Below are positions 1,689-34,399 of a stretch of 64,000 nucleotides of DNA, piece by piece. The translations under genes were made by a program, and so were the position numbers. A model generated the notes under the pieces. The model was not told where the DNA came from. It saw only the letters and a list, made by a program, of their open reading frames with translations, and ran no database searches. Origin of the DNA: a virus; IMG/VR virus record IMGVR_UViG_3300031566_000020, positions 818-64,817 of that record; one strand, given 5' to 3'. Positions within the stretch are counted from its first letter, which is position 1. Each line of letters opens with the position of its first letter.

Positions 1689-2216
1689 ATGTTAAAAGAA
1701 ACTCCTAAAAATCTAATGTATGTTTACTTGGGTGGAATCATGTTGGGCGGTGAAGCTCAAAAACCAACAGTTGATTGGCGATATAGATTAAGAGAAAGCT
1801 ATGCCAATTGGAAAGGGCAAGGAATGTATGAGATTTGTTTTCTTGACCCTTGGAATGGGGAAGTAGGGGCTGTTATAGATAAAGAAGGTCTAACAAATGA
1901 AAGAGTTCCCGGCAAGGCAATATATGAAGGAGATAAATTAGCTATTAAAAAATCAGATATTGTTATTGCTAATTTTAATCAGTATGGAAGTCCAAGACCT
2001 TCTGTTGGAACATACTTTGAATGTGGAATGGCATTGGCATTTGATAAACCTTTGATTCTTATTGTTCCAGAAAGAGAGCATGAAAGATGGAGCAGACATC
2101 CATTTACAACTCAATCGGTAGCAATATATAAATCCGTTGATGAGTTAATAGAATCAAAAATTTTAAACTGGTTTTACAAAAGGACAAACTCTGCTATTTA
2201 TGAGTGGAATTTATAA
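1689..2216 (+). CDS. nucleoside 2-deoxyribosyltransferase-like / 5'-nucleotide N-hydrolase
   Basis: VYLGG N-terminal strand; SDIVIANF...SVGTYFECGMALAFDKPLIL matches NDT-family GTxxExG motif. Confidence 0.75.
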   Translation: MLKETPKNLMYVYLGGIMLGGEAQKPTVDWRYRLRESYANWKGQGMYEICFLDPWNGEVGAVIDKEGLTNERVPGKAIYEGDKLAIKKSDIVIANFNQYGSPRPSVGTYFECGMALAFDKPLILIVPEREHERWSRHPFTTQSVAIYKSVDELIESKILNWFYKRTNSAIYEWNL

Positions 2217-2824
2217 TGGCAAACAACGAAAAAATTATTAATGACTATTTAAAAACCTACTTAATTGGTGCTATGGAGAAAACCCAAGATAAAGATAATG
2301 GTAGGGGTTGGAGAGATAGGTTAAGACCTGAATTGGAATCCAGATTCGATTCAAATAATAATCCAGTTTATGTCTTTGACCCTACTATTATGGAAGAAGA
2401 ACGCACAGGATATGATGTAAAAGAATTCCATGAGAAATTAGAGGATTGGATTTCTTCAGGTAAAAGAGATAAGATTCGTGAAGCAATGGATAAAATTTGG
2501 AGAGGAAAAACATCTTTAAAACAAACAGAAACAACAAAAGCAGATTTGCATCATATGTTTGGTGATGTAGATTATGTTCGGAATTCCAATTTTATTATCT
2601 GTATGATTAATGAAGGCGATTCTCCTTGCGGTACATATTTTGAAGCCGGTTATGCTTATGAAAGAAATATACCTATCTATTTAATTCAAACAATGGCTCT
2701 TTCAAAGTATAATAAATCTTTTCTTGGTTGGGTTCTTGGAAGCGGTGGAGATATATTTCCTAACCAAAAACAATTACTGGAATATTTAGATAAGAGATAT
2801 AATTTAAAAAAGATGGAGAAATAA
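2216..2824 (+). CDS. second nucleoside 2-deoxyribosyltransferase-like protein
   Basis: YLIGAME; DYVRNSNFIICMI...PCGTYFEAGYAYERNIPIYLI; start taken at TAATG overlap. Confidence 0.72.
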   Translation: MANNEKIINDYLKTYLIGAMEKTQDKDNGRGWRDRLRPELESRFDSNNNPVYVFDPTIMEEERTGYDVKEFHEKLEDWISSGKRDKIREAMDKIWRGKTSLKQTETTKADLHHMFGDVDYVRNSNFIICMINEGDSPCGTYFEAGYAYERNIPIYLIQTMALSKYNKSFLGWVLGSGGDIFPNQKQLLEYLDKRYNLKKMEK

Positions 2825-2825
2825 T

Positions 2826-3212
2826 ATGAAATTTAATGAAGTCAAGGATAGTGGAAAAAGACAGCAGTTTGAAACAGGTAGCAAAAGGGATACAAATGAA
2901 GGGAAACCACGTTATGATTTGATTCCACCTTTGGCTTTGAATAGACTTGCTATGCATTTTGCTAACGGAGCAAAGAAGTATGGTGACCGAAATTGGGAAA
3001 AAGGACAGCCATTAAACAGATACATAGAAAGTGCTGAAAGACATTTACAAAAGATGAAGATGGGCATTGTAGATGAAGACCATGAATCAGCATTAGTATG
3101 GAATATAATGGCTTATATGCATACCAAGATGATGATAGAAACAGGGGAACTACCAAAAGAATTAGATAATGTTCCTAAATACAGCGAAGCAGTAAAAAAA
3201 TTATTTCAATAA
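2826..3212 (+). CDS. dATP/dGTP diphosphohydrolase (DUF5664-type)
   Basis: DSGKRQQFETGSKRD...GKPRYDLIPPLALNRLAMHFANGAKKYGDRNWEKG...ESAERHL family signature. Confidence 0.85.
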   Translation: MKFNEVKDSGKRQQFETGSKRDTNEGKPRYDLIPPLALNRLAMHFANGAKKYGDRNWEKGQPLNRYIESAERHLQKMKMGIVDEDHESALVWNIMAYMHTKMMIETGELPKELDNVPKYSEAVKKLFQ

Positions 3213-6074: not shown

Positions 6075-7139
6075 ATGACTGATAAAGAGATTAAACAGCT
6101 TGAGAATTTAATCACAGTTCCTTCTCCTTCTGGATTTGAAGGCTATATTGCCGATTACATAAAAGACCAAGTGTTAGAAGTTCTTAAAGAGGGCAATGTA
6201 GAAGTTGATTTCCAGAAGAATGTTATTGTGAAAATTGATGGTGTAGATACATCAAAAACCATCATGATTGATGCTCATTTAGACCAAATAGGTTATGTTG
6301 TAACAAACATCAGCAAAGAGGGTTTATTAAGCATTGGTATGCTTGGAGGAAGTGATTCATCTATTATTAGTGCAAGGCATCTAAACATCATTACAGATGG
6401 TGGTATTATTAATGCTGTAGTAGATAGAACGCATTCTCATTTGGTTTATGATGAAGATGATGAAAATGTAGGAAATTTATCTGATGCACAGATTGATATT
6501 GGTGTAAGAAGATTTGATGAAGTATCAAAGTATGTAAAGATTGGTGACCCGGTTGTATTTCATCCTCATTTCTATAAATTAATGGAAGATTTTTATGCTG
6601 GATATGGCTTTGATGATAAAGCCGGATGTTGGGTTTTATTAAACACTATTAAGAAATTTGCAAAATCAAAACCTCCGATTAACATTGTTTTTGTTTTTAG
6701 TTCCCAAGAGGAAACAGGAACACGATTGCCAACTATCGTAAATCGCTTTAATCCATCAGCAATCATTTCAATTGATGTTACATTTGGAACAGATTATGGC
6801 TTTGGTGATGTTCTTGATAGACAAGTTGGAACATGTGAACTTGGAAATGGCGGTGTTATTTATAGAGGACTTGGCTTAGATAAAGAGTTCTATCTTGCTT
6901 TAGAAAAAACAGCCATTACTAAAAAACTACCATTCCAAACTCAAGCAAATGCTATTTCAGGTGGATTTACTTCTTTGATGGTTTCATCAGAATTAAACGG
7001 AATAAAAGCAAGTGTTATAGGAGTTCCTTTAAGAAACATGCATACTCCTGTTGAAATTATTTGCCTAAAAGATTTAATGAATGTTTCTAAACTATTAACA
7101 TCTTTTTTGAAGAATCCAAAAATTTCAGAACTTATTTAA
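6075..7139 (+). CDS. M42 family (TET/FrvX) metallo-aminopeptidase
   Basis: PSPSGFE, DAHLDQIG, DDKAG, SQEETG, ISIDVT, LRNMHTPVE. Confidence 0.92.
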   Translation: MTDKEIKQLENLITVPSPSGFEGYIADYIKDQVLEVLKEGNVEVDFQKNVIVKIDGVDTSKTIMIDAHLDQIGYVVTNISKEGLLSIGMLGGSDSSIISARHLNIITDGGIINAVVDRTHSHLVYDEDDENVGNLSDAQIDIGVRRFDEVSKYVKIGDPVVFHPHFYKLMEDFYAGYGFDDKAGCWVLLNTIKKFAKSKPPINIVFVFSSQEETGTRLPTIVNRFNPSAIISIDVTFGTDYGFGDVLDRQVGTCELGNGGVIYRGLGLDKEFYLALEKTAITKKLPFQTQANAISGGFTSLMVSSELNGIKASVIGVPLRNMHTPVEIICLKDLMNVSKLLTSFLKNPKISELI

Positions 7140-10444: not shown

Positions 10445-10778
10445 ATGGAAACAGTTTCAAGATTATATTGCTAGTAGATTACAATGTATTGACCCTAATG
10501 CTAGAAGCACAAAAGGAAGTGGCAACTGTGGTGAATTAGGAGATGTGAATAATAAGTATCTTCTTGTTGAGTGTAAGGATACTGATAAAAAATCTGTTAC
10601 ATTTAAGAAAGATGTTTGGGATAAGCTAAAAGGTGAGCTTCCTTTTCATAGCACAAGAATTCCTATGTATGCTATGCAAGACAAAGACGGAAACAAGTGG
10701 GCGGTAGTAGATTTGGATGATTTTCTGGATATTTTTATTGACCATATATATTATGATGAAGGATGCGGAAATGAGTAA
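10431..10778 (+). CDS. PD-(D/E)XK nuclease, Hjc-like resolvase
   Basis: WKQFQ...TKGSGN...GDV...LLVECK; GGGGAG RBS. Confidence 0.75.
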   Translation: MQSPKWKQFQDYIASRLQCIDPNARSTKGSGNCGELGDVNNKYLLVECKDTDKKSVTFKKDVWDKLKGELPFHSTRIPMYAMQDKDGNKWAVVDLDDFLDIFIDHIYYDEGCGNE

Positions 10779-11439
10779 AAAATTAAAATCTTATAAAAAT
10801 AAGGTTTATAAAACAAGATTTGGGATTGAATTAGAAGCCGAATTTCCTGAAAAAGTTGATATTATGGTCTTGCGTCAGCGTTATAGAAAGCTTTTAAAAA
10901 GCTGGACAGTAACAACAGATACTTCTTTAAACAACGGATTAGAATTTAAGCCAAAAGATATAAACAAACTTAAATTCACAAAAGAAACTCTTGATGAAAT
11001 ATCAGAGATTTTACATATAATTCGTAAAAGAAAAGGTACTTGTTCTTCAGCACAATGTGGATTACATATTCACATTGATATGACATCTTATACAAGCGAA
11101 GAAATTTTAAAAATAATCAAAGAAATGATAGCTAGGCAAAACTATATTGTAGAAAATTTTAATGTATCAGAAGATAGATTAGCAATGTATTGTCAATTAA
11201 TTAAAAAATCTGATTTAAGAAAACTAAAGGCTGAAACACTTGAATCTTTTAGAGCCGGGGATTATATTCCAAACATTAAATATTTAGATTCAAAATATTA
11301 TGTTTTAAATGTAAAAAGTTTGCAAGAATTTAATACAATAGAATTTAGACTTTTCAATGGAACAAAATATATAAGAGATATTAAAAAAATATTAACTTTT
11401 ATTTATGAATTTCTAATTAATGCGTTGGAAAGAGAATGA
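10771..11439 (+). CDS. putative amidoligase (glutamine synthetase-like COOH-NH2 ligase, Amidoligase_2 type)
   Basis: FGIELE, WTVTTDTSL, GLEF, CGLHIHID, KYYVLN, TIEFRLFNGT. Confidence 0.82.
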   Translation: MSKKLKSYKNKVYKTRFGIELEAEFPEKVDIMVLRQRYRKLLKSWTVTTDTSLNNGLEFKPKDINKLKFTKETLDEISEILHIIRKRKGTCSSAQCGLHIHIDMTSYTSEEILKIIKEMIARQNYIVENFNVSEDRLAMYCQLIKKSDLRKLKAETLESFRAGDYIPNIKYLDSKYYVLNVKSLQEFNTIEFRLFNGTKYIRDIKKILTFIYEFLINALERE

Positions 11440-15918: not shown

Positions 15919-16142
15919 CAAAGAAACTATTCAAAAATGTACTTGAACCATTTAAAAACTCTATTGTTTATAAATCAGTTAAAGAAGGACAGACTTCTTT
16001 TAGAATAACACAGCAATTAGTACAATCTATTTATTTAAAAGCAAGAAAATTGAAAACATTGGCAACACTCATCTTAACTATTCCGGCTAACAAAGAGGAA
16101 AATTACATACTTAGATGCCAAATCAGCAAGGAGAAAAAATGA
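15915..16142 (+). CDS. hypothetical protein (75 aa)
   Basis: ATGA overlap. Confidence 0.6.
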   Translation: MTKKLFKNVLEPFKNSIVYKSVKEGQTSFRITQQLVQSIYLKARKLKTLATLILTIPANKEENYILRCQISKEKK

Positions 16143-16801
16143 AAAAGATTTTAACAATTTTATTTGCATTTTTATTTGTTACAAGCACAGCAATGGCTTA
16201 TTCTGGAACATTGGTAAGCCCGGAAGCAGAACCGAAAACGGTTGTAGTTAGCATGTTTGACAGAATTCAAGACTATACTGTTTCTCTTGTTATGGTAGGA
16301 GAAGGTCTTGGCACTTGTAGTGGAACAATGGTTTATGAAGACCAAGAAGCACAATACATTATTACAGCAAAACACTGTGTAGAAGGTGCATTAGAAGTTT
16401 ATGTTGAAAATAATATGGCTTATAGATGGCAAACATCTTTAGAAGATGATATGGCATTGATAACTTTGAAAGAGAAAATTTATACAAAAATTCCGGCAAA
16501 TTTGGCTTATAGACCATTAAGAAAAGGTGACAAAACTTATCTTATTGGATATCCTAGTACAGTTAGATATACAACCCAAGGAACAATGATATTAAAAACT
16601 AGAGATTGGGTTATTTATGATATGAAAGTAATTCCCGGCTGTTCTGGTGGAGGAATTTTTAATGATTATGGGCAATTAGTTGGAGTAATATGGGGTGCAT
16701 ATATAAATGTTGAAAGAGAAAACCCAATGAAATCACTTGGAGAAGGTATTGAAGATGTACGAACCTTTTTAAGAAAGGTACTGCCACAGGCAATAAAATG
16801 A
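16139..16801 (+). CDS. secreted trypsin-like serine protease
   Basis: Signal peptide MKKILTILFAFLFVTSTAMA; triad motifs ITAKHC, DDMALI, PGCSGGG. Confidence 0.88.
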   Translation: MKKILTILFAFLFVTSTAMAYSGTLVSPEAEPKTVVVSMFDRIQDYTVSLVMVGEGLGTCSGTMVYEDQEAQYIITAKHCVEGALEVYVENNMAYRWQTSLEDDMALITLKEKIYTKIPANLAYRPLRKGDKTYLIGYPSTVRYTTQGTMILKTRDWVIYDMKVIPGCSGGGIFNDYGQLVGVIWGAYINVERENPMKSLGEGIEDVRTFLRKVLPQAIK

Positions 16802-17223
16802 GTTATTTAATTATTTTAGAAAAATTAATGTTGGCAAGTTTATTAGGTTTCTTTATTGGTAGAGAAAGAAAGAAACAGGATAAACATGGTGGGTCAAGAA
16901 CCTTTGCTCTTGTATGCCTTGGGTCTTGCTTGATTGCCTTAATTTCTTTAGAATTGCTAAAGATGCCAAGACCAGAAGGAGTTGTCATTAATTTTACTAG
17001 AATGGTTAGTTATGCTATTGCATCAATTGGTTTTATAGGCAGTGCAGTTGTAATACATCATAAAGGTGAAGTTGATGGATTAACAACAGCTTCAGCTATT
17101 TTTGGTATTGTTCCGGTTGGTATTGCAATCGGATTCGGATACTATTTTTTAGGCACAGTTGCTAGTGTCCTTATATATATTTTATTAGAATACAAATATT
17201 GGTTTGATAAAGGAGATGTGTAA
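16798..17223 (+). CDS. mgtC: MgtC/SapB family membrane protein
   Basis: LLGFFIGRER...GSRTFALVCLGSC...IGFIGSAVVI...GLTTASAIF...GIAIGFG. Confidence 0.88.
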   Translation: MSYLIILEKLMLASLLGFFIGRERKKQDKHGGSRTFALVCLGSCLIALISLELLKMPRPEGVVINFTRMVSYAIASIGFIGSAVVIHHKGEVDGLTTASAIFGIVPVGIAIGFGYYFLGTVASVLIYILLEYKYWFDKGDV

Positions 17224-24749: not shown

Positions 24750-25000
24750 TGGAAAAATATTGTAAAAATTGTGGTGAAGAAGTCCAGCAAGAATTATATG
24801 AAACAGGTATTGAAGAATTTTGTCGCTGTCAATGTACTTTAGAACCTGATTTTAATCCAGACTTATGGACAAACAATCTATTGGAAAGAAAACGTAAGAT
24901 AGCAAGGGATTTGAAAGACAGGATGAAAAAAGAATGGACAGGTCTGAATGGACAAGACTACCAAGAACAAACTCCATTAGAAAGTTTTGAAAATGAATAA
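24749..25000 (+). CDS. small Zn-ribbon protein, paralog of 19926-20084
   Basis: CKNCG...YETGIEEFCRCQCTLEPDFNPDLW. Confidence 0.7.
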   Translation: MEKYCKNCGEEVQQELYETGIEEFCRCQCTLEPDFNPDLWTNNLLERKRKIARDLKDRMKKEWTGLNGQDYQEQTPLESFENE

Positions 25001-25808
25001 TCCAATTATAATTTGTGCTTCAGGCAATTCTGTGCCTTTTTTGAATAGCCAATATTATAGAACGCATTGCGGATTACCATCAAAACTTCAATACACAATA
25101 CAGAATAATGTTTCTATTGGATTGAATTGGTTCTTTAAATACGGATGCCGGACAACTTTTACATCTTGGGTAGATTGGCAGTGGTATGTTTGGACAAAAG
25201 AACAAACACAATCTTTACCGCTTATGGTTGGAAATTATGACCAATCTTTAAAAAATCATAATGAAGATTTAACCAATAAGAATACGATTTTGTTGAAAAG
25301 TAGCAACACATATTATGGCAAAGAATCAATCGAAAAGGGAGTATACACAAAGCATTTGGTAGGGATTTGGGCTATGAGCCTTGCAGTTTCTTTGGGGTTT
25401 AAAGAGATATACCTTCTTGGCTATGATTGTTGCGAAGTAAACGGACAAACACATTTTTATCAAGGGGTTATTGATGTAAATCAATCAGTTCCTTTGAAGT
25501 TAAGAGGAAAGGTTGTTGAAAACAGACCTATATTTAGAGGAGTAGGAAAGAAAGAAGATGGGAAATATAAAACCGGAACATATAACCGGAAAGGTAAAGA
25601 TATAAGCGATACATATTTTGATAAGTTCACAACAGAAAAGGATGTCAAAATTTATAATGTATCAGAAGAAAGTATCATAACATCTTTTCCTAAAATTTCA
25701 TATGAAGAATTATATGAAAGAGTTGGCGATATTAAAGTTGATAATGATGCAATTAGGGATAAAATAAAGGAAGCTTTACATGAAAGAGCTTGTGATTGTA
25801 ACCGTTAG
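24993..25808 (+). CDS. MptE-like/DUF115 (Maf- or sialyltransferase-like) glycosyltransferase
   Basis: IICASGNS, IGLN, WVD, AMSLAVSLGFKEIYLLGYDC...THFY, KIYNVSEES...FPKIS. Confidence 0.7.
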   Translation: MNNPIIICASGNSVPFLNSQYYRTHCGLPSKLQYTIQNNVSIGLNWFFKYGCRTTFTSWVDWQWYVWTKEQTQSLPLMVGNYDQSLKNHNEDLTNKNTILLKSSNTYYGKESIEKGVYTKHLVGIWAMSLAVSLGFKEIYLLGYDCCEVNGQTHFYQGVIDVNQSVPLKLRGKVVENRPIFRGVGKKEDGKYKTGTYNRKGKDISDTYFDKFTTEKDVKIYNVSEESIITSFPKISYEELYERVGDIKVDNDAIRDKIKEALHERACDCNR

Positions 25809-26538: not shown

Positions 26539-26718
26539 ATGAATATACTTTTAAGAAAAACATTATTATATCGTGTAATTAATTTAGTTGTTATAGGAAT
26601 GATTGTGTTTCTTATAACAAAAAACGTAGAAGAAGCACTTAAATTGAGTCTTGTGGTTGAAGTAACAAAAACTGTACTCTATCTTGTATACGAATATTTT
26701 TGGGAGCTTTCTCACTAA
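26539..26718 (+). CDS. DUF2061-like small membrane protein (59 aa)
   Basis: Missed by ORF track: MNILLRKTLLYRVINLVVIGMIVFLITKNVEEALKLSLVVEVTKTVLYLVYEYFW (KTxxYR...K..LY..E..W pattern). Confidence 0.65.
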   Translation: MNILLRKTLLYRVINLVVIGMIVFLITKNVEEALKLSLVVEVTKTVLYLVYEYFWELSH

Positions 26719-27434
26719 TGGAACTTAAAAACTTTATAATTTTAGGCAATTCAAAATGCGGTACAACGGGGCTGTATGCAACCATGAGCCAGCATCCTCA
26801 GATTGTTCCAGCAAGAACAAAGGAATTGTATTTTTTTGGTTCACCGAAATACACAAAGGGTGTTAATTGGTACAATAGCCAACTAGGAAAGTGTGATGAA
26901 AATCAAATCACAGGAGAATCTACACCTCCGTATTTTTTCCGAAAAGCATCAGTTCTCCAAATTTATAAATATGATAAAGATTTAAAGTTTATTGTTCTAT
27001 TAAGACATCCTGTGAAAAGAGTTATTTCTCATTATAACCATACGAGTGTACCTGGATATGCTTATCCGTTCTCAAAGTTTTTAGATAAAACATTAAAAAG
27101 GATATATATTGAAGCCCACCCATTTTTAATTTTATACCATGTCATTGGGAAAAGCTGTTACTATCCTATGATAAAATATTGGCTTTCTTATTTTCCAAAG
27201 AGCCAATTCCTGTTTGTTAAAAGCGAAGAGTATTTTACTCAGTCACAGAAGGTGTTAAACGAAATTTATAGGTTCTTAAATATTAGCGAATATGATACAG
27301 AGGTAATCCACGCATTAAAGGGCAAATACAGAGCAACAGTGACCGACGAAGACATCAAGCGATTAGAAGAGTATTATAAACCTTACAACAAACTGTTACC
27401 AGCCTTAATTGGTGAAAAATTTACATGGGAGTAG
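26718..27434 (+). CDS. PAPS-dependent sulfotransferase (heparan sulfate sulfotransferase-like)
   Basis: FIILGNSKCGTTGL (5'-PSB), QHPQI...KELYFF, GESTPPY, IVLLRHPVKRVISHY (3'-PB). Confidence 0.9.
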   Translation: MELKNFIILGNSKCGTTGLYATMSQHPQIVPARTKELYFFGSPKYTKGVNWYNSQLGKCDENQITGESTPPYFFRKASVLQIYKYDKDLKFIVLLRHPVKRVISHYNHTSVPGYAYPFSKFLDKTLKRIYIEAHPFLILYHVIGKSCYYPMIKYWLSYFPKSQFLFVKSEEYFTQSQKVLNEIYRFLNISEYDTEVIHALKGKYRATVTDEDIKRLEEYYKPYNKLLPALIGEKFTWE

Positions 27435-27439
27435 GATAG

Positions 27440-28051
27440 ATGAAAAACTATTTTTCTATAAGAAACGAAGAGCATATTAAGTTACAGTTGGAAGGAATGA
27501 AACAGCTTATCAATTTCTTCAGAACAGAATGCGGTGTCTATGCTTATTTAACCTATGGTTCGTTATTAGGGGCTGTTAGAAACCAAGATGTTATAGGTCA
27601 TGATACTGATTATGATATTGCCTATATGTCTAAATTCTCTGAACCAAAAGATATTCAGGCTGAATGGAGAGAGATATGCTGTAAACTAATTGATAACAAT
27701 ATGTTAGGCAAAATTTGGACTAAGCAAGGCATCTTTATCCATCCAACAAAAGACCAATTAGGTGATTTTTCCGGACAGATGCATGTGCAAACTCCAAATA
27801 GGGTTATTCATATTGATGTGTATACTTCCTTTTGTAAGAATGGAAAATACCATTTGAGTTTTGGAATTCATGGACACTTAAAGAGAAGTGATATTGTTCC
27901 TTTTGGCAAAGTAACATTAAGAGGTATTGACTTTCCAGCACCAAAAAGACCAGAAGCAATATTAAAATTTATGTATGGTAAGGATTGGATGACCCCAAAA
28001 GAAGCATATAAATATCAAGGAAAACGAAAGAAACTTTGGGAGTACAAATGA
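27440..28051 (+). CDS. licD: LicD family phosphotransferase
   Basis: YGSLLGAVRNQDVIGHDTDYDI, IDVY, PAPKRPEAILKFMYGKDW. Confidence 0.9.
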   Translation: MKNYFSIRNEEHIKLQLEGMKQLINFFRTECGVYAYLTYGSLLGAVRNQDVIGHDTDYDIAYMSKFSEPKDIQAEWREICCKLIDNNMLGKIWTKQGIFIHPTKDQLGDFSGQMHVQTPNRVIHIDVYTSFCKNGKYHLSFGIHGHLKRSDIVPFGKVTLRGIDFPAPKRPEAILKFMYGKDWMTPKEAYKYQGKRKKLWEYK

Positions 28052-28455
28052 AAAAAGTAATTACTTTCATGGTTGGAGATTTGTTTCACATAGGACATCT
28101 TAATATGCTTCAGAACGCTAAGAAGCTAGGAGATTATCTTATTGTTGGGATTCCTACATCATGGACTATAAAAGAACATATTAAAGGGAAAACTCCGATT
28201 TTTTCAGCAGAGGAAAGATTACGGATTGTTCAGGCTTTAGAGATTGTAGATTTTGCATTTATTTATACAGACAATGATAGTTTAGATGAATCAATAAGAT
28301 TATTAAAACCGGATATTATTTGCAGAGGAGATGACAACAAAAACTTTTTTGGTAAAAAAGCGTCAGAAGAAATAGGATGTGAGATTGTATATTTTCCATA
28401 TACACAAGGAATTTCATCAACAGAAATTAGGAGAAGATTATGCGAAGAAAATTAA
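28048..28455 (+). CDS. HxGH cytidylyltransferase (TagD / glycerol-3-phosphate CTase-like)
   Basis: GDLFHIGHLNML, LIVGI, EERL, PDII, YTQGISST. Confidence 0.9.
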   Translation: MKKVITFMVGDLFHIGHLNMLQNAKKLGDYLIVGIPTSWTIKEHIKGKTPIFSAEERLRIVQALEIVDFAFIYTDNDSLDESIRLLKPDIICRGDDNKNFFGKKASEEIGCEIVYFPYTQGISSTEIRRRLCEEN

Positions 28456-28631
28456 CAGATGAAGAAGTTTACATGATAGTTCGTGCAGAAGAAGAATGTG
28501 GTATGAACACTTTACTTCAAGAACTGTTTACATCAGAAAATCCTGTAGTTTATTGTGAGATTGATGAGAAGGGGTGTTTCGGAGAGTATACTGTTGAAGA
28601 AAAACATAAGAAAGTTAGGAGTAAAAAATGA
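28440..28631 (+). CDS. hypothetical protein (63 aa)
   Basis: AGGAG RBS; packed. Confidence 0.55.
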   Translation: MRRKLTDEEVYMIVRAEEECGMNTLLQELFTSENPVVYCEIDEKGCFGEYTVEEKHKKVRSKK

Positions 28632-29200
28632 GGGTAATATTTGGTGGAAATTCTGATATAGGAAAAGCGATTGAAGGGGAACATATATCTAGAAAAGATT
28701 GTGATGTAACAAAATTTAATGATGTTCTGCATATTATACAAACTTATAGACCAAATGAGATTGTGGATTGTGCTGGGGTTATTTATCCATCATCAATTTA
28801 CAGTTCAGATGTTTTAAGTTGGGAGCATGAGTTGAAGGTAAATTTAATAGGTTCTTACTATATTGCAAAGCTAGGTACACTTAATATAAACGCAAAGATT
28901 GTTTTCATTGGGTCTACAAGCGGATTAAGAGGTAGGGGTGATTGGAGTGGGTATTGTGCATCAAAGGCTGGATTAATATCTCTTGTTCAATCAATGGCTG
29001 AAGAAGGATATAATGCATGGGTGGTAAATCCATCAAGAACAGCAACCAAAATGAGAAAAAAGCTTTTTCCGGATGAAGACCAAAACACTTTATTGCAACC
29101 TTCAGATATAGCAAAAGTTGTGCAAGGATGTTTTGACGGTGTTTATAAATCCGGTAGTAGTATTACAGTAAAAAAAGATAAAATAATTGTAGAGGAGTAA
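28628..29200 (+). CDS. SDR oxidoreductase (Bcs1-type ribulose-5-phosphate reductase-like)
   Basis: GGNSDIG, AGV, NLIG, GSTSGLRGR, YCASK, NPSRTATKMRKKLFPDED. Confidence 0.8.
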   Translation: MRVIFGGNSDIGKAIEGEHISRKDCDVTKFNDVLHIIQTYRPNEIVDCAGVIYPSSIYSSDVLSWEHELKVNLIGSYYIAKLGTLNINAKIVFIGSTSGLRGRGDWSGYCASKAGLISLVQSMAEEGYNAWVVNPSRTATKMRKKLFPDEDQNTLLQPSDIAKVVQGCFDGVYKSGSSITVKKDKIIVEE

Positions 29201-29202
29201 TT

Positions 29203-29604
29203 ATGAAACTAAAATTTAAAACAGATGGTATTTTTACAGACATCACCGAAAAATTAAAGCCAACAATTAAAGATGGTATTTTAGTGGTATCAACCCAACA
29301 TACAACATGTATGTTAGCTATTCTTGAAAATGAATCATTGTTAAAGAAAGATATGGAAGGATTTTTAGAAAGAATTGCTCCGGAAAAAGGTGTTTATGCT
29401 CATGATTATATTGAGAAAAGAGATGTTCCTCCGGATGAAAGAATTAACGGTTTTTCTCATATCAGAGCAATGATGTTTCAACCATCATTAACAATTCCTG
29501 TAGAAGATGGCAAACTGGTACTTGGAAAATGGCAAACAGTATTCTTAATTGAATTAGACCCAAAAAGGGAACGAACTCTACATGTTGTCGAAATCGAAAA
29601 ATAA
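29203..29604 (+). CDS. yjbQ: YjbQ/UPF0047 family protein
   Basis: QHTTC, ENE...D, YAHD, NGFSHIRA, LVLGKWQTVFLIELD. Confidence 0.9.
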   Translation: MKLKFKTDGIFTDITEKLKPTIKDGILVVSTQHTTCMLAILENESLLKKDMEGFLERIAPEKGVYAHDYIEKRDVPPDERINGFSHIRAMMFQPSLTIPVEDGKLVLGKWQTVFLIELDPKRERTLHVVEIEK

Positions 29605-29613
29605 GGATTTATT

Positions 29614-32310
29614 ATGACTGACCAAATGCATCTTTTAAAAAAAGTTACTGATTTGCTTAAAGATAATAATATCGAATATTTCCTTGACTGTGGAACTCTA
29701 CTTGGTGCAGTTAGAGAAGGAGATTTTCTTGCTCATGATGCCAATGATATTGATATTGGATTGAAGCAAGAGGACTATTGGAAAGTAAGAACCATAATAG
29801 ACCGACATTTTGAGTTAGAATATAAAAATTATTGGAGAGCTGAAATTGCAGTTACTCTTGATAATAAATGCCATCTAGATATGTTTTTCTATACAGATGA
29901 AGGGAAATATCTAGCAACTCAAGCATGTTTAGGTAACCCAATGCAAAGAGGGATTAATATAGAATCTGAAACACGAAGATTAAAAGAGAATATTTTTCCT
30001 TTGAAAACAATCAAAATGAAAAGAAAAACTTTCTTTGTTCCAAATAATCCGGAAGCTGTATTAGAAGAACAATATGGGAAAGAATGGAGAACTCCTGTTA
30101 CAAAATGGTATCATGAATATGGACAGGGCTTAAATCCGGAGCATAGAACCATAGGAATATTAATCACAGCGTTTTTAAGAGATGACAAGCTTTTTAAAGA
30201 AGTAAATTCGATATTACAGTATTGCGATAAAGATGACCTATTCAGAAAATGGATTCGTATTTATATTGCTGACCAAGGAAATCCAGAATGGTCAGAAGAA
30301 AAACAAAGATTCTATGACCAATTAAGAGCAAACGGACATAAGATATTTAAAACACCTTACAATTCCGGGCTATCATACAACAGGAACTTTTTGGTTGAGC
30401 AAAGCAACGAACCATACCTGATGATTATAGATGATGATTTTGAGTTTACCGAAAAAACGGATTTAACTCAAATGATTGAAATTTTAAATCATAGAGAGAA
30501 AAACGGAATTGTTGGTGGAGATATTGATGAAAGACCTCCATATCATGCAAACTTAATGTTTGAAGTTAAGGGTGGAATTAATCATCTTTATAGAATACAA
30601 AAAATGAATCAAGAACAGAATGTTAAGAATTACAAATACTATTATACAGACATTGTGCTTAATTTCTTTTTAGCCAAACGAAAAGTCTTAGAAGATGTTA
30701 AATTAGACAACAATTTAAAATTGGTTGAACATTCTGACCACATGCTCCGTATTAAAAGAGATTCAGATTGGAAAGTGTGCTATTGTCCAGATGTTACATG
30801 TAGACATCAAAGAGGTAGAGATAGTGATGAGTATCGTAATTTCAGGCATAATCATAACTATGTGCAAATGTTTTTAGATAAATGGAATATTAAAGAAGAA
30901 AGAAACGCACACAAAGTATATGTAACTCCAATAAAAGAAATTAAGTGTATTGAAGAAAAACCTGAACATAAAGAAAAAATAAAAGTTGTTCAGATTGCAA
31001 GGATTCCATGTGCCAATAGTGCATATGAAGTGTCAAACCTATTAAATAAGTATTCAGATAAATATGAATCACGTTATATTTTAGGAGCAGAATATAGCCG
31101 AAACAATCAAACTATTCCTTTCAGACAATTTCCTTATGATATCTTATGGAAAGAAAATCAAGAGGAAGCTATTAGACTTATTAAAGAAGCAGATATTATT
31201 CATATTCACCACGATTCATGGGAAGACATAGAACAATATTTTGAAGGAAAGTGTGTTGTAAGTACGTTGTATAATTTAACACAGTCTTTACAGTATAAAG
31301 ATAATAAATTTAATAATGATTATCTTAATAAATTAAAATCTTTTGGACATATAACAGTTGCAGACCAGCCACTTCAAAAAATAATGTTCAGTGATATTTC
31401 AACTGACACTGTTCCATTAGTAAAAATGATGTTTGGGTTAAGAGTTTATGACAACGGAAATAAAAATGTTGTTATAGGCTTTGCTCCAACAAATAAAAGC
31501 CCTATAGGTATAGGAAGTAAAAGATTTGAAGAAGTTATGACTGTGATAAACGGTCTTAAAGAAAAATATGACTTTGAATTTAAATTAATCGAAGGACTTC
31601 CTTATGAAGAAAATTTGGTAGAAAAAGGCAAATGTGACATCATTATTGATGATGTTGATGATAGGTATGAAAAGGCTCACAACACAACTATTGAAGCTGG
31701 AATGCTCAATGCAGTTCCATTGACTAATTATAGTGGAGATTGGTATCCAGCACATAAGACATCAATCATTAACTTACAAGAAACTTTAGAGTTATATTTA
31801 GAGAACCCGGCATTGATAGAAGATTATCGTAAACGGATTTTGGAAAAATGGAGAGCCGAAGTGTATACTCCTCAAAATTTGTTAAAAGAATTTGAAAGAG
31901 TTTATGATAGTTTAACAATAAAGAAATCTATAGAAGAAATAGCAATACCAGATACAAAAGATTTATCAATTAAAGAAGAATTTATTTTACTAGATTCAAT
32001 TTTTGAACAAAATAAAATTGATTATTGTTTAATAAAAACAAGTTGTTTAGATGCAGTAAGGTTTGGAGAACCTCGTTTAACACCAGATACAATACATATA
32101 GCGGTAAAAGATATTGAAAAAGCGTCAGCGATTTATAAAGAATTAAATTTAAAATTAAAGGTTAAGTTTTCTACTAATATGCCACCAAAAATGAAAGAGA
32201 TTGGATTTTTTGGAAGGGCTAGAAAGATTCCATTTCCTGTAATTCCATATCTTCAAAATTTTTATGGATATGGAACAAGGTGGAGAAAGTATGGTATAAC
32301 AGAACAATGA
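29614..32310 (+). CDS. four-domain glyco-enzyme: LicD + GT-A (GT2/GT12-like) + GT-B (GT4-like) + degenerate LicD
   Basis: GTLLGAVREG...DIDI; GLSYNRN...IIDDDFEF...VLNFFLA; IGFAPT...DIIIDDV...TIEAG; C-terminal YCLIKTSCLDAV...PVIPYLQNFYG. Confidence 0.85.
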   Translation: MTDQMHLLKKVTDLLKDNNIEYFLDCGTLLGAVREGDFLAHDANDIDIGLKQEDYWKVRTIIDRHFELEYKNYWRAEIAVTLDNKCHLDMFFYTDEGKYLATQACLGNPMQRGINIESETRRLKENIFPLKTIKMKRKTFFVPNNPEAVLEEQYGKEWRTPVTKWYHEYGQGLNPEHRTIGILITAFLRDDKLFKEVNSILQYCDKDDLFRKWIRIYIADQGNPEWSEEKQRFYDQLRANGHKIFKTPYNSGLSYNRNFLVEQSNEPYLMIIDDDFEFTEKTDLTQMIEILNHREKNGIVGGDIDERPPYHANLMFEVKGGINHLYRIQKMNQEQNVKNYKYYYTDIVLNFFLAKRKVLEDVKLDNNLKLVEHSDHMLRIKRDSDWKVCYCPDVTCRHQRGRDSDEYRNFRHNHNYVQMFLDKWNIKEERNAHKVYVTPIKEIKCIEEKPEHKEKIKVVQIARIPCANSAYEVSNLLNKYSDKYESRYILGAEYSRNNQTIPFRQFPYDILWKENQEEAIRLIKEADIIHIHHDSWEDIEQYFEGKCVVSTLYNLTQSLQYKDNKFNNDYLNKLKSFGHITVADQPLQKIMFSDISTDTVPLVKMMFGLRVYDNGNKNVVIGFAPTNKSPIGIGSKRFEEVMTVINGLKEKYDFEFKLIEGLPYEENLVEKGKCDIIIDDVDDRYEKAHNTTIEAGMLNAVPLTNYSGDWYPAHKTSIINLQETLELYLENPALIEDYRKRILEKWRAEVYTPQNLLKEFERVYDSLTIKKSIEEIAIPDTKDLSIKEEFILLDSIFEQNKIDYCLIKTSCLDAVRFGEPRLTPDTIHIAVKDIEKASAIYKELNLKLKVKFSTNMPPKMKEIGFFGRARKIPFPVIPYLQNFYGYGTRWRKYGITEQ

Positions 32311-32891
32311 TAAATATACTTATAACAGGACATCCTAGAAGTGGTACACATTATATTGCTAATCTTTTAAATGCTTTAGGACATTCGTGTACCTACGAAA
32401 AAAGAAATCCTAATGGTTTTACTGCTTCTTGGAAACATATTAAGAGTGGAGTTTTTGAACCGCCATGCAGAGAAACAGAAATCGTTTGTGATTTTGATAA
32501 AATAATTCATCAAGTCAGACATCCTTTAAAGGTTATTGCATCTTCTACTACACTTTGGACAATGAGCATGATTTATATGGCTCAATTTATAGAACTTCCA
32601 GACCCAATTGTTAATAGAGAAAACACAATAAAAAATTGTATGGTTACTTGGTTAAAATGGAATGAGTTTATTGAAAAGAAAGCAGTATGGCGATATAGAT
32701 TAGAAGATTTAAAATATGTAAATAAAGAATGGTGCGAACAATTGGAAATCCCTTATTGTGAGATACCAAATAAAAGTCCTGTAAATACTAGAAAACATAT
32801 AGAATTAAATTGGTCAGATTTATATAAAATCAATACTGAATTAACAACAGAAATAAGGTCAAAGGCTTTTGAATATGGATACTCAACCTAA
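32307..32891 (+). CDS. second sulfotransferase-like protein
   Basis: ILITGHPRSGTHY (5'-PSB), HQVRHPLKVIAS (3'-PB). Confidence 0.8.
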   Translation: MINILITGHPRSGTHYIANLLNALGHSCTYEKRNPNGFTASWKHIKSGVFEPPCRETEIVCDFDKIIHQVRHPLKVIASSTTLWTMSMIYMAQFIELPDPIVNRENTIKNCMVTWLKWNEFIEKKAVWRYRLEDLKYVNKEWCEQLEIPYCEIPNKSPVNTRKHIELNWSDLYKINTELTTEIRSKAFEYGYST

Positions 32892-33705
32892 AATCGCAAT
32901 TTGTATTCCTACAATTCTAAAAGATAATGGCTTAATGCAATCACTTAATTCGATACTTGATGTTTATCAAGACAATTGGGTAGTGCTTATTGGTGAACAG
33001 AATAATATCGAAGATTATAGTGAAGAAAAAACTATTTTCTATCATACAGCTTGTGCAAAGGCACATGATGATTTACATCAGGATAGATTTAAAGTGGTTA
33101 AACTTCCTTATGATTGTGGTTTATCTTATGCAAGAAATAAGCTTGTTGAGAAAGCAATGGAAATAGGAGCAGATTATTGTGTTATTTCAGCAGATAGTAT
33201 TATGTTCACAGAATCAATGAAAAAATTAAATGAGTTATTTATTTGCTTTAAGGAGTATGATGTTGTTGGGTTAGAATTAAAAGGACGTATTTCTTGGGAA
33301 GCCTATTTAGATATACAAGAAGCATTTGTATTTGATTTTATTGAAAGGCATCCGGTTAATGCTCTTTTAGATAGATATACAGACAAGCAAATAACGGTTC
33401 ATACTTGTGATGTAATACGGAATTTCTTTATGGCAAAAACTCCGGTTTTAGCTTCTGTTCTATGGGATGATAATGTGAAGATGGGGGAGCATGGTGATTG
33501 GTTTTGGAGATTAAAACAAGAAGGGTTTAAGGTAGGATTTACAGATTATTGTGAAGGTCAGTATCGTTCAAATATAGAAACAGAATATAAACAGTTACGT
33601 CAGAAGAACTTAGAGATTGGTAAGGATTATATGAAAAAGAAATACAATCTCAAAAAATGGCATGAATATATTCATTTAGAAAGAGTTAGGAAACCCAATG
33701 TTTAA
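32875..33705 (+). CDS. GT-A glycosyltransferase (GT2/GT12-like), paralog of the GT-A domain in 29614-32310
   Basis: ICIPT, LPYDCGLSYARNKLV, CDVIRNFFMAK, EHGDWF; DxD degenerate (ISADS). Confidence 0.8.
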   Translation: MDTQPKIAICIPTILKDNGLMQSLNSILDVYQDNWVVLIGEQNNIEDYSEEKTIFYHTACAKAHDDLHQDRFKVVKLPYDCGLSYARNKLVEKAMEIGADYCVISADSIMFTESMKKLNELFICFKEYDVVGLELKGRISWEAYLDIQEAFVFDFIERHPVNALLDRYTDKQITVHTCDVIRNFFMAKTPVLASVLWDDNVKMGEHGDWFWRLKQEGFKVGFTDYCEGQYRSNIETEYKQLRQKNLEIGKDYMKKKYNLKKWHEYIHLERVRKPNV

Positions 33706-34399
33706 TATAATAAAAACAATATTTGATACAACAATTGCTATTTTTTTCTCTATTGAAACATACCAGTTTTTATTTTGTTTACTAATCACAGTTTCCATAC
33801 ACGAATTGGCTCATATGCTAGTGGCTCTAAAATGCGGTATGGGGGTCAAAGCATTTTCAATAGGGTTCGGTAAACCTTATTTACATAAAACCTTCAAGGG
33901 GATAGATTTTAGGCTTTCTCCGTTGCCTTTTGGGGGGTATTGTGACATAAAGGGCATGGAATCCAAGGAAGAACCTGATGATTTTTTGGCACATCCATAT
34001 AGGAACAAATTTGCTGTTTTAATTGCCGGAGTAACTGTTAATATCCTGTTTGCCTGTATTTGCTACATTATAAACTTTGGTTCTATTCGGCTTGGGTTTG
34101 CAATAGACATGGAGTTTTTAAAGGCATTGTTTACAAAGGATTATGAAATGGTAGCCTTTTTGGTTAGAAACATTCCTATGAATTGGCTTATTTTACAGCT
34201 ATCCTTGCTTAATATGTTCTGTGGATTAACCAATTTAATTCCTTTTCCGGCTCTTGATGGAGGGCATTTATGGGAAGTATTATTAGAGAAACCTTTAGGA
34301 GATAAATTTATTCCTGTTTACAGAGCTTTAAATTACTTTGGATTTATATTTTTGATTATTTTACAATTATATTTGTTATGGTGGGTTTACTTTAAATAA
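33698..34399 (+). CDS. M50 site-2 intramembrane metalloprotease (RseP-like, no PDZ)
   Basis: IHELAH, FSIGFG, LPFGGYC, AGVTVN, NLIPFPALDGGH. Confidence 0.92.
   Translation: MFNIIKTIFDTTIAIFFSIETYQFLFCLLITVSIHELAHMLVALKCGMGVKAFSIGFGKPYLHKTFKGIDFRLSPLPFGGYCDIKGMESKEEPDDFLAHPYRNKFAVLIAGVTVNILFACICYIINFGSIRLGFAIDMEFLKALFTKDYEMVAFLVRNIPMNWLILQLSLLNMFCGLTNLIPFPALDGGHLWEVLLEKPLGDKFIPVYRALNYFGFIFLIILQLYLLWWVYFK

What the first reader, a model, noticed from the sequence alone, without database searches (positions are those of the whole stretch)
29614..33705. 898-aa LicD/GT-A/GT-B/LicD' fusion and a paralogous GT with GT12 (B4GALNT)-like motifs
The GT-A domain (GLSYNRN...IIDDDFEFTEKTDL...IVGG...TDIVLNFFLA...EHSDH...KVCYCPDVTCRH) resembles from memory the catalytic domain of animal GM2/Sda synthases (GRN..V...VDDDFVF...DGVVNFFLA). 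The 278-aa paralog keeps the scaffold but has ADS in place of DDD. The C-terminal LicD copy lacks the G-TLLG and DxD motifs. This suggests a processive assembly-line polymerase with inactive acceptor-binding modules, reminiscent of FKRP's GT-A-like stem plus LicD.
Basis: partly seen in the sequence, partly recalled or inferred. Interest (0 to 1): 0.65.

Follow-up and report, generated by a model that had tools for sequence, protein, structure and literature searches.

The report
Phage four-module glycan-building enzyme
An uncultured phage encodes one large soluble protein that joins a phosphate-linking transferase, two different sugar transferases (one the closest known relative of the animal GM2-ganglioside enzyme) and a dead extra copy of the first module, so the phage probably builds its own teichoic-acid-like glycan, though on what target is unknown.

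Summary
ORF 29614-32310 (898 aa) has four modules. LicD (1-172) keeps all four catalytic Asp of FKRP. The GT-A (178-440) has human B4GALNT1 (GT12) as closest solved relative: family profile E 8.9e-31 against 2.4e-10 for the next GT2, and Z 24.1 against 18.4. It keeps DDD and three of the five GT12-only donor residues. The GT-B (455-770) is GT4-like, with E-x7-E and Z 22.5 to BshA. The C-terminal LicD-like module (780-898) has no conserved acidic residue.

The 276-278-aa paralog (32869-33705) belongs to a monophyletic clade in which A-D-S replaces DxD and is itself nearly invariant. It is therefore a maintained variant, not decay.

About 30 full-length relatives (39-60% identity) occur on phage-sized contigs. 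The same modules also occur permuted (GT-B-LicD-GT-A-LicD') and split, which is strong evidence of functional coupling.

Surrounding genes fit synthesis of a decorated, phosphodiester-containing glycan: a cytidylyltransferase, a second LicD and sulfotransferases, with methyltransferases and APS kinase in sister phages.

Processivity and the acceptor (host envelope polymer, virion protein or DNA) remain untested.

The parts
29614..32310 (+). 898-aa four-module protein (P0001): LicD - GT12-like GT-A - GT4-like GT-B - degenerate LicD'
   Evidence: ORF and translation. AF2 pLDDT 85.1 with four domains. About 30 full-length relatives at 39-60% identity. No hydrophobic segment, maximum KD19 0.87.
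29614..30129 (+). Module 1, residues 1-172: active-looking LicD (CDP-X phosphotransferase, NTase fold)
   Evidence: Pfam LicD 33.6 bits. Family profile against FKRP E 3e-6 over 15-158. Invariant D42/D45/D47 and H87-x-D89 align to FKRP D360/D362/D364 and H-V-D416, which are essential in FKRP.
30145..30933 (+). Module 2, residues 178-440: GT12-like inverting GT-A
   Evidence: B4GALNT1 is the best hit: phmmer 3e-8, family profile 8.9e-31 over 222/237 positions, Foldseek 2.4e-15, VIA Z 24.1, rmsd 2.5, 230 aa, 25% identity. Invariant R189, DDD273-275, N350, E372-H373, H398, Y407, R411.
30976..31923 (+). Module 3, residues 455-770: GT4-like retaining GT-B
   Evidence: VIA Z 22.5 to BshA, 20.2 to PimA, and many other GT-B enzymes. 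E686-x7-E694, K636 and H530/H532/H533/D534 are conserved. It is the best-conserved module, with 72 invariant columns. Relatives P0059 and P0060 carry Pfam Glycos_transf_1 hits. An intein sits inside E-x7-E in relative P0061.
31951..32307 (+). Module 4, residues 780-898: LicD' (LicD-derived NTase fold without catalytic residues)
   Evidence: hhalign to module 1: 94.5%, E 8e-8. The stand-alone AF2 model has pLDDT 92.7. The best fold match is the FKRP catalytic domain (Foldseek 1.2e-3, TMq 0.63-0.65; VIA Z 8.3, tied with other NTases). There are only 4 invariant columns, none acidic, and median identity is 23%.
32307..32891 (+). Small sulfotransferase-like gene (P0003) wedged between the fusion and the paralog
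   Evidence: Weak Pfam Sulfotransfer_3 hit on the GHPRSGT loop (E 5.4e-5, below cut-off). ATGA overlap with the stop of P0001. No counterpart in the syntenic locus L004.
32869..33705 (+). GT12-like paralog with A-D-S in place of DxD (P0002; the ATG at 32875 gives the 276-aa form)
   Evidence: 30% identity to module 2, E 6e-23. Of 27 relatives, 25 have [AS]DS, with D109 invariant and A108/S110 at 90% or more; G-L-S, R-N, N185, E-H and Y-x-x-x-R are kept. The ADS/SDS clade is monophyletic, 29 leaves, support 1.0. It lies 0.1-3.5 kb downstream of the fusion in L004, L005, L006 and L008.
26700..29604 (+). Upstream supply and decoration genes of the same operon: sulfotransferase, stand-alone LicD, cytidylyltransferase, SDR, UPF0047
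   Evidence: Pfam: Sulfotransfer_1 3.4e-17, LicD 1.3e-7, CTP_transf_like 1.4e-18, adh_short 4.4e-14, UPF0047 1.1e-31. The cytidylyltransferase scores similarly against TagD and RfaE domain II, both below cut-off.

Best explanation
P0001 is a soluble, cytoplasmic, multi-module glycan synthase of an uncultured tailed phage. Three modules look catalytically competent. Module 1 is a LicD phosphotransferase that would move an X-phosphate (glycerol-, ribitol- or choline-phosphate) from a CDP-activated donor onto a sugar hydroxyl. Module 2 is an inverting, metal-dependent GT12-like GT-A that would add a beta-linked sugar from a UDP-sugar. Module 3 is a retaining GT4-like GT-B that would add an alpha-linked sugar. 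Acting in turn on one growing chain, they would make a phosphodiester-containing hetero-oligosaccharide or repeat polymer of the wall-teichoic-acid type II or capsule kind. Neighbouring genes would then decorate it, with sulfotransferases here and methyltransferases in sister phages. The CDP donor would come from the adjacent cytidylyltransferase. The fourth module (LicD') has lost all catalytic acids and is always C-terminal. The separate GT12-like paralog has a fixed A-D-S instead of DxD. The most likely role of both is substrate handling (holding the phosphorylated acceptor, or oligomerisation), as the dead GT-A stem does in FKRP. Module identities and the conservation of their active sites are shown. 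The order of reactions, the donors, chain length and the acceptor are inferred. My estimate for the acceptor is a host envelope polymer or lipid-linked precursor about 45%, virion proteins about 35%, DNA or other about 20%.
For: Domain identities rest. Catalytic residues are invariant across 30 relatives in modules 1-3 and absent in module 4. The same four modules recur fused in two different orders, and also split into LicD-GT-A(-LicD') and GT-B-LicD' proteins. That is Rosetta-stone evidence that they act together. The operon context supplies a nucleotidyltransferase, a second active LicD and sulfotransferases. Sister loci swap in FkbM/TylF/class I methyltransferases and an APS kinase, so the core builder is constant and the decorators vary. 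LicD enzymes can polymerise glycerol-phosphate from CDP-glycerol (CpsC; PMC11666461). One-chain enzymes that alternate a sugar transfer and a polyol-phosphate transfer are known (CpsD, same paper). FKRP uses a dead GT-A domain to hold a phosphate of its acceptor (PMC6965139). There is no transmembrane segment. The genes are translationally coupled.
Against: No biochemical data exist for any member. The inter-domain arrangement in the model is uncertain (pTM 0.52), so no channel from site to site can be claimed. The cluster has no initiating phosphoglycosyl transferase, flippase or ABC exporter in the window, which an envelope polymer would need from the host. The cytidylyltransferase is not confidently TagD-like, since it scores slightly higher on heptose-1-P adenylyltransferase. 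The paralog keeps every other donor-site residue and its ADS is under selection. This fits an altered enzyme as well as it fits a binding module. The host is unknown, and no cultured phage has the fusion.
Confidence: 0.6

Rival explanations
1. Virion glycosylation machine. The enzyme and its partners decorate capsid, tail or fibre proteins in the cytoplasm before lysis, giving the particle a charged (phosphate/sulfate) glycan coat. The closest parallels are chlorovirus capsid glycans built by multidomain viral GTs, and glycosylated mycobacteriophage virions.
For: All proteins are soluble. No lipid-carrier or export genes are present. The core (fusion plus ADS paralog) is conserved across phages that are only 35-60% identical and sits at the same place, next to the converging structural module. 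That looks more like a core phage function than a strain-specific conversion gene. An intein inside the GT-B active-site motif of a relative is typical of genes a phage cannot afford to lose. A DUF115/MptE-like gene with weak CstII similarity is linked to the cluster. The precedent is PBCV-1 A111/114R, one protein with three GT functions (PMC7826918).
Against: No acceptor protein was identified. LicD, CDP-polyol and sulfate chemistry are unknown on any phage virion. The position next to the structural genes is at the end of the opposite transcription arm, not inside the structural operon.
Confidence: 0.35
2. The 278-aa ADS paralog is an active glycosyltransferase with altered chemistry (metal-independent, or using a different donor), so the system adds three sugars and not two. 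It is not an inactive acceptor-binding module.
For: In the wider family the GT12-like domain typically comes in pairs, adjacent or fused. Both copies keep DxD in 50 of 52 two-domain proteins, so the ancestral state of the pair is two working enzymes. The ADS clade keeps G-L-S, R-N, N-F-F, E-H and Y-x-x-x-R, and A-D-S is itself nearly invariant with the central Asp invariant. It forms a single old clade (support 1.0) and is not a recent decay product.
Against: In B4GALNT1 the first and third Asp (D356, D358) bind UDP and Mn (PMC12217166), and both are lost here. The enzyme family is metal-dependent (PMC12430364).
Confidence: 0.45
3. Non-processive stepwise builder. The three sites each act once (or a few times) to make a short defined side chain or cap on an existing polymer, rather than a long repeat polymer.
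For: There is no TPR or other known primer-binding/processivity domain as in CpsD (no such Pfam hit). The precedent for multi-GT viral proteins (A111/114R) is a stepwise builder. Variable terminal decorators (methyl, sulfate) in sister loci suit a defined end structure.
Against: A LicD enzyme (CpsC) does polymerise. Alternating GT/phosphotransferase fusions in bacteria are polymerases. The presence of two active LicD domains in the locus would allow both priming and elongation.
Confidence: 0.4
4. DNA hypermodification. The modules glycosylate and phospho-decorate a modified base in phage DNA.
For: The window also carries nucleotide-metabolism oddities: a MazZ-like dATP/dGTP diphosphohydrolase domain, two nucleoside 2-deoxyribosyltransferase-like genes, an amidoligase and a P-loop kinase. 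Phage GT-A and GT-B enzymes do glycosylate DNA (bioRxiv 10.1101/2023.12.21.572611 and PMC13326640, listed). T4 alpha-glucosyltransferase is among the GT-B fold matches (Z 19.5).
Against: That fold match is no better than dozens of unrelated GT-B enzymes. No base-hydroxymethylating or TET-like enzyme was found beside the cluster. LicD and sulfotransferases have no known DNA substrates.
Confidence: 0.07

Closest known systems
Human B4GALNT1 (GM2/GD2 synthase), CAZy GT12; PDB 9h6j-l
   Same: Module 2 and the paralog share its GT-A core over the whole catalytic domain (profile E 8.9e-31; Z 24.1; 25% identity). They share the T-F-L-R strand, DDD, N437 (N350 here), H483 (H398) and the GT12-specific Y501-x3-R505 helix (Y407, R411).
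   Different: The phage domain is about 250 aa, soluble and cytoplasmic. It lacks the B4GALNT1 membrane anchor. K284 and R457 are not conserved at the aligned positions. Donor and acceptor are unknown. [quoted passage not shown]
FKRP / fukutin (LicD-family ribitol-phosphate transferases of the dystroglycan pathway)
   Same: It has a LicD NTase catalytic domain with the same four essential Asp, in one chain with a GT-A-fold domain. One of the two folds is kept as a non-catalytic substrate-holding part (PMC6965139).
   Different: In FKRP the GT-A is dead and the LicD is alive. Here the GT-A and one LicD are alive and a second LicD is dead. A GT-B module is added. There is no zinc-finger loop and no evidence of the FKRP tetramer.
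Capsule polymerase CpsD with transition transferases CpsA/CpsC (Actinobacillus pleuropneumoniae), and Bcs3 of H. influenzae b
   Same: One polypeptide alternates sugar transfer and polyol-phosphate transfer to make a teichoic-acid-like polymer. A non-catalytic domain handles the primer. CpsC shows that a LicD enzyme can polymerise glycerol-phosphate from CDP-glycerol (PMC11666461; PMC10299916).
   Different: In CpsD and Bcs3 the phosphotransferase module is TagF-like (PF04464), not LicD, and the primer-binding part is TPR. They are bacterial, membrane-associated and linked to ABC export. No TagF-like or TPR hit occurs here.
Chlorovirus PBCV-1 multidomain glycosyltransferases (A111/114R, A064R)
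   Same: A virus-encoded single protein carries several glycosyltransferase functions, with linked sugar methyltransferases, and builds a virus-specific glycan in the cytoplasm (PMC7826918).
   Different: It comes from a eukaryotic giant virus, the product is an N-linked capsid glycan, there is no LicD/phosphodiester chemistry, and the GT families differ.
Phage-borne licD + ispD pair in 'Flandersviridae', and prophage-encoded TarP of S. aureus
   Same: These are phage-encoded LicD with a cytidylyltransferase (PMC8008677) and a phage-encoded GT-A that remodels wall teichoic acid (PMC9650247; TarP is among the GT-A fold matches at Z 16.9).
   Different: Those are single-domain accessory genes. 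Neither has a GT12-like domain, a GT-B, a dead LicD copy or a fusion.

Membership tests
CAZy GT12 (B4GALNT1-type GT-A) | GT-A fold with an acidic DxD metal/nucleotide motif | tested here: met
   AF2 model and fold matches. D273-D274-D275 are invariant in 30 relatives and align to B4GALNT1 D356-D358. This is not met for the paralog P0002, which has A-D-S.
CAZy GT12 (B4GALNT1-type GT-A) | Closest relative among characterised/solved GTs is a GT12 member over the whole catalytic domain, clearly above GT2 and other GT-A families | tested here: met
   Profile E 8.9e-31 over 222/237 positions, against 2.4e-10 (N-terminal third only) for the next GT2-type chains. Foldseek 2.4e-15 against 5.7e-9. VIA Z 24.1 against 18.4.
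CAZy GT12 (B4GALNT1-type GT-A) | Donor-binding residues reported as conserved only in GT12: K284, N437, R457, Y501, R505 (PMC12217166) | tested here: inconclusive
   N437, Y501 and R505 are matched by invariant N350, Y407 and R411. K284 aligns to a variable T/P position, which is K in some distant relatives. R457 aligns to L370, next to the nearly invariant K369. Three of five are met.
CAZy GT12 (B4GALNT1-type GT-A) | Assignment by CAZy/dbCAN family models, and beta-1,4-GalNAc (inverting) activity | not testable with these tools
   No CAZy HMM library is available and there is no assay. Pfam places both under Glycos_transf_2.
LicD family (PF04991, CDP-X phosphotransferases) | Pfam model above gathering score, and an NTase fold with the acidic residues essential in FKRP (D360, D362, D364, D416) | tested here: met
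   For module 1: 33.6 bits against a cut-off of 22.6. Invariant D42, D45, D47 and D89 align to the four FKRP residues.
LicD family (PF04991, CDP-X phosphotransferases) | The same catalytic residues in the C-terminal module (LicD') | tested here: not met
   Homology to module 1 is supported (hhalign E 8e-8; FKRP is the best fold hit). But no Asp or Glu is conserved in 780-898; only K787, K808 and K861 are. It is LicD-derived and not a working LicD.
CAZy GT4-type retaining GT-B | Two-Rossmann GT-B fold with the C-terminal E-x7-E motif | tested here: met
   Z 22.5 to BshA and 20.2 to PimA, 285-293 aa aligned. E686 (90% or more) and E694 (invariant) are eight residues apart.
CAZy GT4-type retaining GT-B | Sequence-level match to Glycos_transf_1 (PF00534) or to a solved GT4 | tested here: inconclusive
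   P0001 has no Pfam or PDB sequence hit. Relatives P0059, P0060, P0077 and P0080 carry PF00534/PF13692.
TagF-like multi-domain teichoic/capsule polymerases (CpsD, Bcs3, TarL) | A TagF-like (PF04464) polyol-phosphate transferase module | tested here: not met
   P0001 has no PF04464 hit at E up to 1. The phosphotransferase module is LicD. It therefore works like these enzymes at most by analogy and is not a member.

The most novel reading that the evidence does not exclude
A widespread group of uncultured tailed phages makes its own anionic, teichoic-acid-like (phosphodiester plus sulfate or methyl) glycan with a self-contained, cytoplasmic, LicD/GT12/GT4 assembly enzyme and puts it on the virion. 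This would be a phage 'glycocalyx' built with chemistry so far known only from bacterial walls and the animal dystroglycan/ganglioside pathways. The prokaryotic-virus GT12-like family (at least 1,700 sequence clusters) would then be the pool from which the animal GT12 enzymes are drawn, or a sister of it.
Probability: 0.25. Interest if true: 0.85.

Novelty: new variant of a known kind. Interest (0 to 1): 0.6.

Why it matters
GT12 is known biochemically only from four mammalian GalNAc-transferases, and its first structure dates from 2025. A large viral and bacterial family that keeps its hallmark donor-site helix gives small, soluble, easily expressed models for that fold, and bears on where the animal enzymes came from.

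The fusion is also a natural mix-and-match kit. It combines a LicD phosphotransferase, an inverting GT and a retaining GT in one soluble chain, with natural permuted and split versions. That is directly useful for enzymatic synthesis of phosphodiester-linked glycans of the teichoic-acid and capsule type.

It offers natural experiments on what 'dead' catalytic folds do, in the mirror image of FKRP: here the LicD is dead and the GT-A alive.

Biologically, it points to an unstudied layer of phage-host interaction. Either the host surface is rewritten during infection, or the virions are glycosylated.

Tried and rejected
I therefore took the genomic context of relatives from IMG/VR loci only.

A scan of 185,579 representative prokaryote genomes with GT-B-derived patterns found no relative. 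The GT-A alignment was too diverse to derive a scan pattern. Presence in cellular genomes is thus barely tested. The ESM Atlas lists mostly viral clusters and some Planctomycetota clusters as nearest neighbours.

Cultured phages hold no full-length relative. Only a roughly 140-residue stretch of the GT-A domain matches (31% identity), in 184 Salinibacter ruber phage records and 2 Vibrio phage records, all annotated hypothetical.

The phage DNA polymerase has no match in cultured phages, and the recombinase has only distant ones. No host could be assigned. Frequent Shine-Dalgarno motifs (35 of 53 genes against 9.5 expected) and 31% GC only hint at a low-GC, SD-using host.

Literature hits for 'GT12' in bacterial genome papers were false matches to GT125 and to locus tags. 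I found no published statement on prokaryotic or viral GT12.

PHROGs gave nothing useful for the three proteins, and NCBIfam gave only sub-threshold hits.

I considered that the paralog pairs with module 2 as a pseudo-homodimer like the B4GALNT1 dimer. No multimer prediction was available to test this.

I considered circular permutation as the origin of the two domain orders and rejected it. LicD' is C-terminal in both, so the difference is a relocation of the GT-B module.

Full report
**Setting.** The window is most of a 68,226-bp IMG/VR virus record (linear, CheckV 73%) with about 31% GC. It is a tailed phage.
- The plus-strand arm carries primase, a UvsX-like recombinase, DNA polymerase and many accessory genes.
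- A converging minus-strand arm from 35083 carries baseplate-, tape-measure- and virion-protein-like genes.
- It has no close cultured relative.
- The finding lies at the end of the plus-strand arm, in a run of tightly packed or overlapping genes: sulfotransferase, LicD, cytidylyltransferase, SDR, UPF0047, the 898-aa protein, a small sulfotransferase-like gene, the 278-aa paralog, and an M50 protease.

**Observation.**
- AlphaFold2 with 30 relatives gives a confident model (pLDDT 85.1) of four domains joined by two disordered linkers.
- The inter-domain geometry is not reliable (pTM 0.52).
- None of the three proteins has a hydrophobic segment.

**Module 1 (residues 1-172) is a working-type LicD.**
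- Pfam LicD scores above threshold.
- The family profile hits FKRP at E 3e-6.
- The four acidic residues whose mutation abolishes FKRP activity (D360, D362, D364, D416; PMC6965139) align to D42, D45, D47 and D89.
- All four are invariant in 30 relatives.

**Module 2 (residues 178-440) is GT12-like.**
- A single-sequence search of all PDB sequences returns human B4GALNT1 as the only significant GT (E 3e-8).
- A profile of 28 phage domains returns it at 8.9e-31 over 222 of 237 positions. The next chains (assorted GT2-type enzymes) reach only 2.4e-10 and match only the N-terminal nucleotide-binding third.
- Foldseek gives 2.4e-15 against 5.7e-9.
- An exhaustive structural scan gives Z 24.1, rmsd 2.5 Å, 230 residues and 25% identity, against Z 18.4 for the next GT-A.
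- The B4GALNT1 structure paper lists K284, N437, R457, Y501 and R505 as conserved only within GT12 (PMC12217166).
- The phage family keeps N437 (N350) and the Y501-x3-R505 helix (Y407, R411) as invariant residues. It also keeps the shared T-F-L-R strand, DDD and H483 (H398).
- K284 and R457 are not kept at the aligned positions.
- I therefore call it GT12-like. Formal CAZy membership could not be tested.
- The domain family is large. There are 1,741 clusters (50% identity) at E ≤ 1e-30, and the nearest Atlas clusters are mostly Uroviricota.

**Module 3 (residues 455-770) is a divergent GT4-like GT-B.**
- It has no sequence-level Pfam or PDB hit.
- It has strong structural matches: BshA Z 22.5, PimA 20.2, and many others.
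- It has a conserved E686-x7-E694 motif, K636 and a D-I-I-H-x-H-H-D strand.
- It is the most conserved part of the protein (72 invariant columns).
- In one relative an intein is inserted inside the E-x7-E motif. That is where inteins usually sit: in indispensable active sites.

**Module 4 (residues 780-898) is a LicD copy that has lost its chemistry.**
- Profile-profile comparison with module 1 gives 94.5% probability and E 8e-8.
- Folded alone (pLDDT 92.7), its best match is the FKRP catalytic domain. Foldseek gives 1.2e-3 with TMq about 0.64. VIA gives Z 8.3, tied with other small nucleotidyltransferases.
- It is the least conserved module (median 23% identity).
- Only three lysines and a P-x-P-x3-Y-L...W tail are conserved, and no acidic residue.

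**The paralog.**
- P0002 is 30% identical to module 2.
- Among 27 relatives, 25 have [A/S]-D-S where the family has D-D-D. The central Asp is invariant and the flanking Ala and Ser are conserved in at least 90%.
- G-L-S, R-N, N-F-F, E-H and Y-x3-R are also kept.
- On a tree of 235 domains the ADS/SDS sequences form one clade (29 leaves, support 1.0). It is sister (support 0.89) to the clade that holds the LicD-fused GT-A domains. This tree is midpoint-rooted and built from the best 150 hits plus chosen relatives.
- The loss of DxD therefore happened once, long ago, and the new motif is under selection.
- In the wider family the domain usually comes in pairs, adjacent or fused, and both copies keep DxD in 50 of 52 two-domain proteins.
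- The pair here is thus a derived version of a two-enzyme pair. Whether the ADS copy still catalyses is open.

**Architecture across relatives.**
- About 30 proteins of roughly 900 aa share the window's order at 39-60% identity, on contigs up to 139 kb.
- A sister group (L005, L006, L008; P0037, P0039) has GT-B-LicD-GT-A-LicD' in one ORF.
- Other forms are LicD-GT-A-LicD', LicD-GT-A-X-GT-B-LicD', GT-A-LicD-GT-A, X-GT-B-LicD' and GT-B-X.
- In the forms examined that contain it, LicD' is the C-terminal module.
- The ADS paralog lies just downstream of the four-module gene in all four related viral loci that have it.
- The flanking decorators differ. There are sulfotransferases here. L006 has APS kinase plus FkbM- and TylF-type methyltransferases, and L005 and L008 have class I methyltransferases.
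- P0003 has no counterpart in the closest locus, L004.

**Mechanism.**
- Shown: the module identities, intact active sites in three modules, loss of the active site in the fourth, genetic coupling, and a constant core with variable decorators.
- Inferred: the three sites act on one chain to make a glycan containing a beta-sugar, an alpha-sugar and an X-phosphate. The CDP donor comes from the neighbouring cytidylyltransferase, whose specificity is unclear. LicD' and perhaps the paralog hold the phosphorylated acceptor, by analogy with the FKRP stem and the CpsD TPR domain.
- LicD-driven polyol-phosphate polymerisation has precedent in CpsC.
- Processivity, chain length and the acceptor are unknown. 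I give host envelope polymer about 45%, virion proteins about 35%, and DNA or other about 20%, for the reasons listed under the rival explanations.

**Comparison and novelty.**
- All four folds are known, and phage licD plus a cytidylyltransferase has been noted before (PMC8008677).
- Three things are new as far as I could find in the searchable literature. One is a large phage-centred family that is the nearest relative of animal GT12. The second is its fusion with LicD and GT4 modules in several orders. The third is the paired 'degenerate' parts: a dead LicD and an ADS GT-A.
- I rate it a new variant of a known kind (multi-module glycopolymer synthases), of solid interest to glycobiologists and phage biologists.
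- The score is limited by the unknown target.
- Earlier first-reader notes on this genome describe the surrounding cluster.

Noticed in passing
relative P0061 (aligned to window 31669-31698, P0001 residues 686-695): A homing-endonuclease intein (PF05204 + PF14528) is inserted inside the E-x7-E motif of the GT-B module of a stand-alone GT-B-LicD' relative. Another relative (P0050, 1219 aa) also carries an intein domain.
   Followed up: partly
window 24987-25808 (+): A 273-aa protein has a sub-threshold MptE-like/DUF115 hit (E 6e-6) and weak similarity to CstII sialyltransferase (E 0.05). Copies lie beside the glycan cluster in L004, L005, L006 (two copies) and L008. It could be a nonulosonic-acid or Maf-type transferase.
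   Followed up: partly
L006:8884-9471 and L006:12742-14000; L005:8621-10005; L008:12747-13397: Sister phages replace the sulfotransferases with an APS kinase and FkbM-, TylF- and class I methyltransferases. So the glycan core is constant and its decoration varies between phages.
   Followed up: partly
window 1689-3212 (+) and 10717-11439 (+): Two nucleoside 2-deoxyribosyltransferase-like genes, a MazZ-like dATP/dGTP diphosphohydrolase N-domain and an amidoligase_2 gene hint at non-canonical nucleotide or DNA-base metabolism.
   Followed up: no
window 16115-17223 (+), 6075-7139 (+), 33698-34399 (+): There is an unusual set of host-physiology genes for a phage: a trypsin-like peptidase, an MgtC-family membrane protein, an M42 aminopeptidase, and an M50 site-2-type protease directly after the paralog. 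The M50 protease is also present after the paralog in L004 and L008.
   Followed up: no
relative P0013 (55% identical, 900 aa, 55-kb contig): NCBI names it 'MAG: glycosyltransferase [Candidatus Helarchaeota archaeon]'. Given the phage context of all other relatives, this is probably a phage contig binned into an archaeal MAG.
   Followed up: no
L022 (Salinibacter phage 14_1, OR896218.1 25175-26293): The only cultured phages with a relative of the GT12-like domain are 184 Salinibacter ruber phage records (and 2 Vibrio). There it lies in a 372-aa protein annotated hypothetical. This is a possible experimental handle.
   Followed up: partly
window 28628-29200 (+): The SDR gene is short (190 aa) and matches Pfam adh_short only from profile position 50 onward. 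The N-terminal dinucleotide-binding part may be missing or encoded separately.
   Followed up: no
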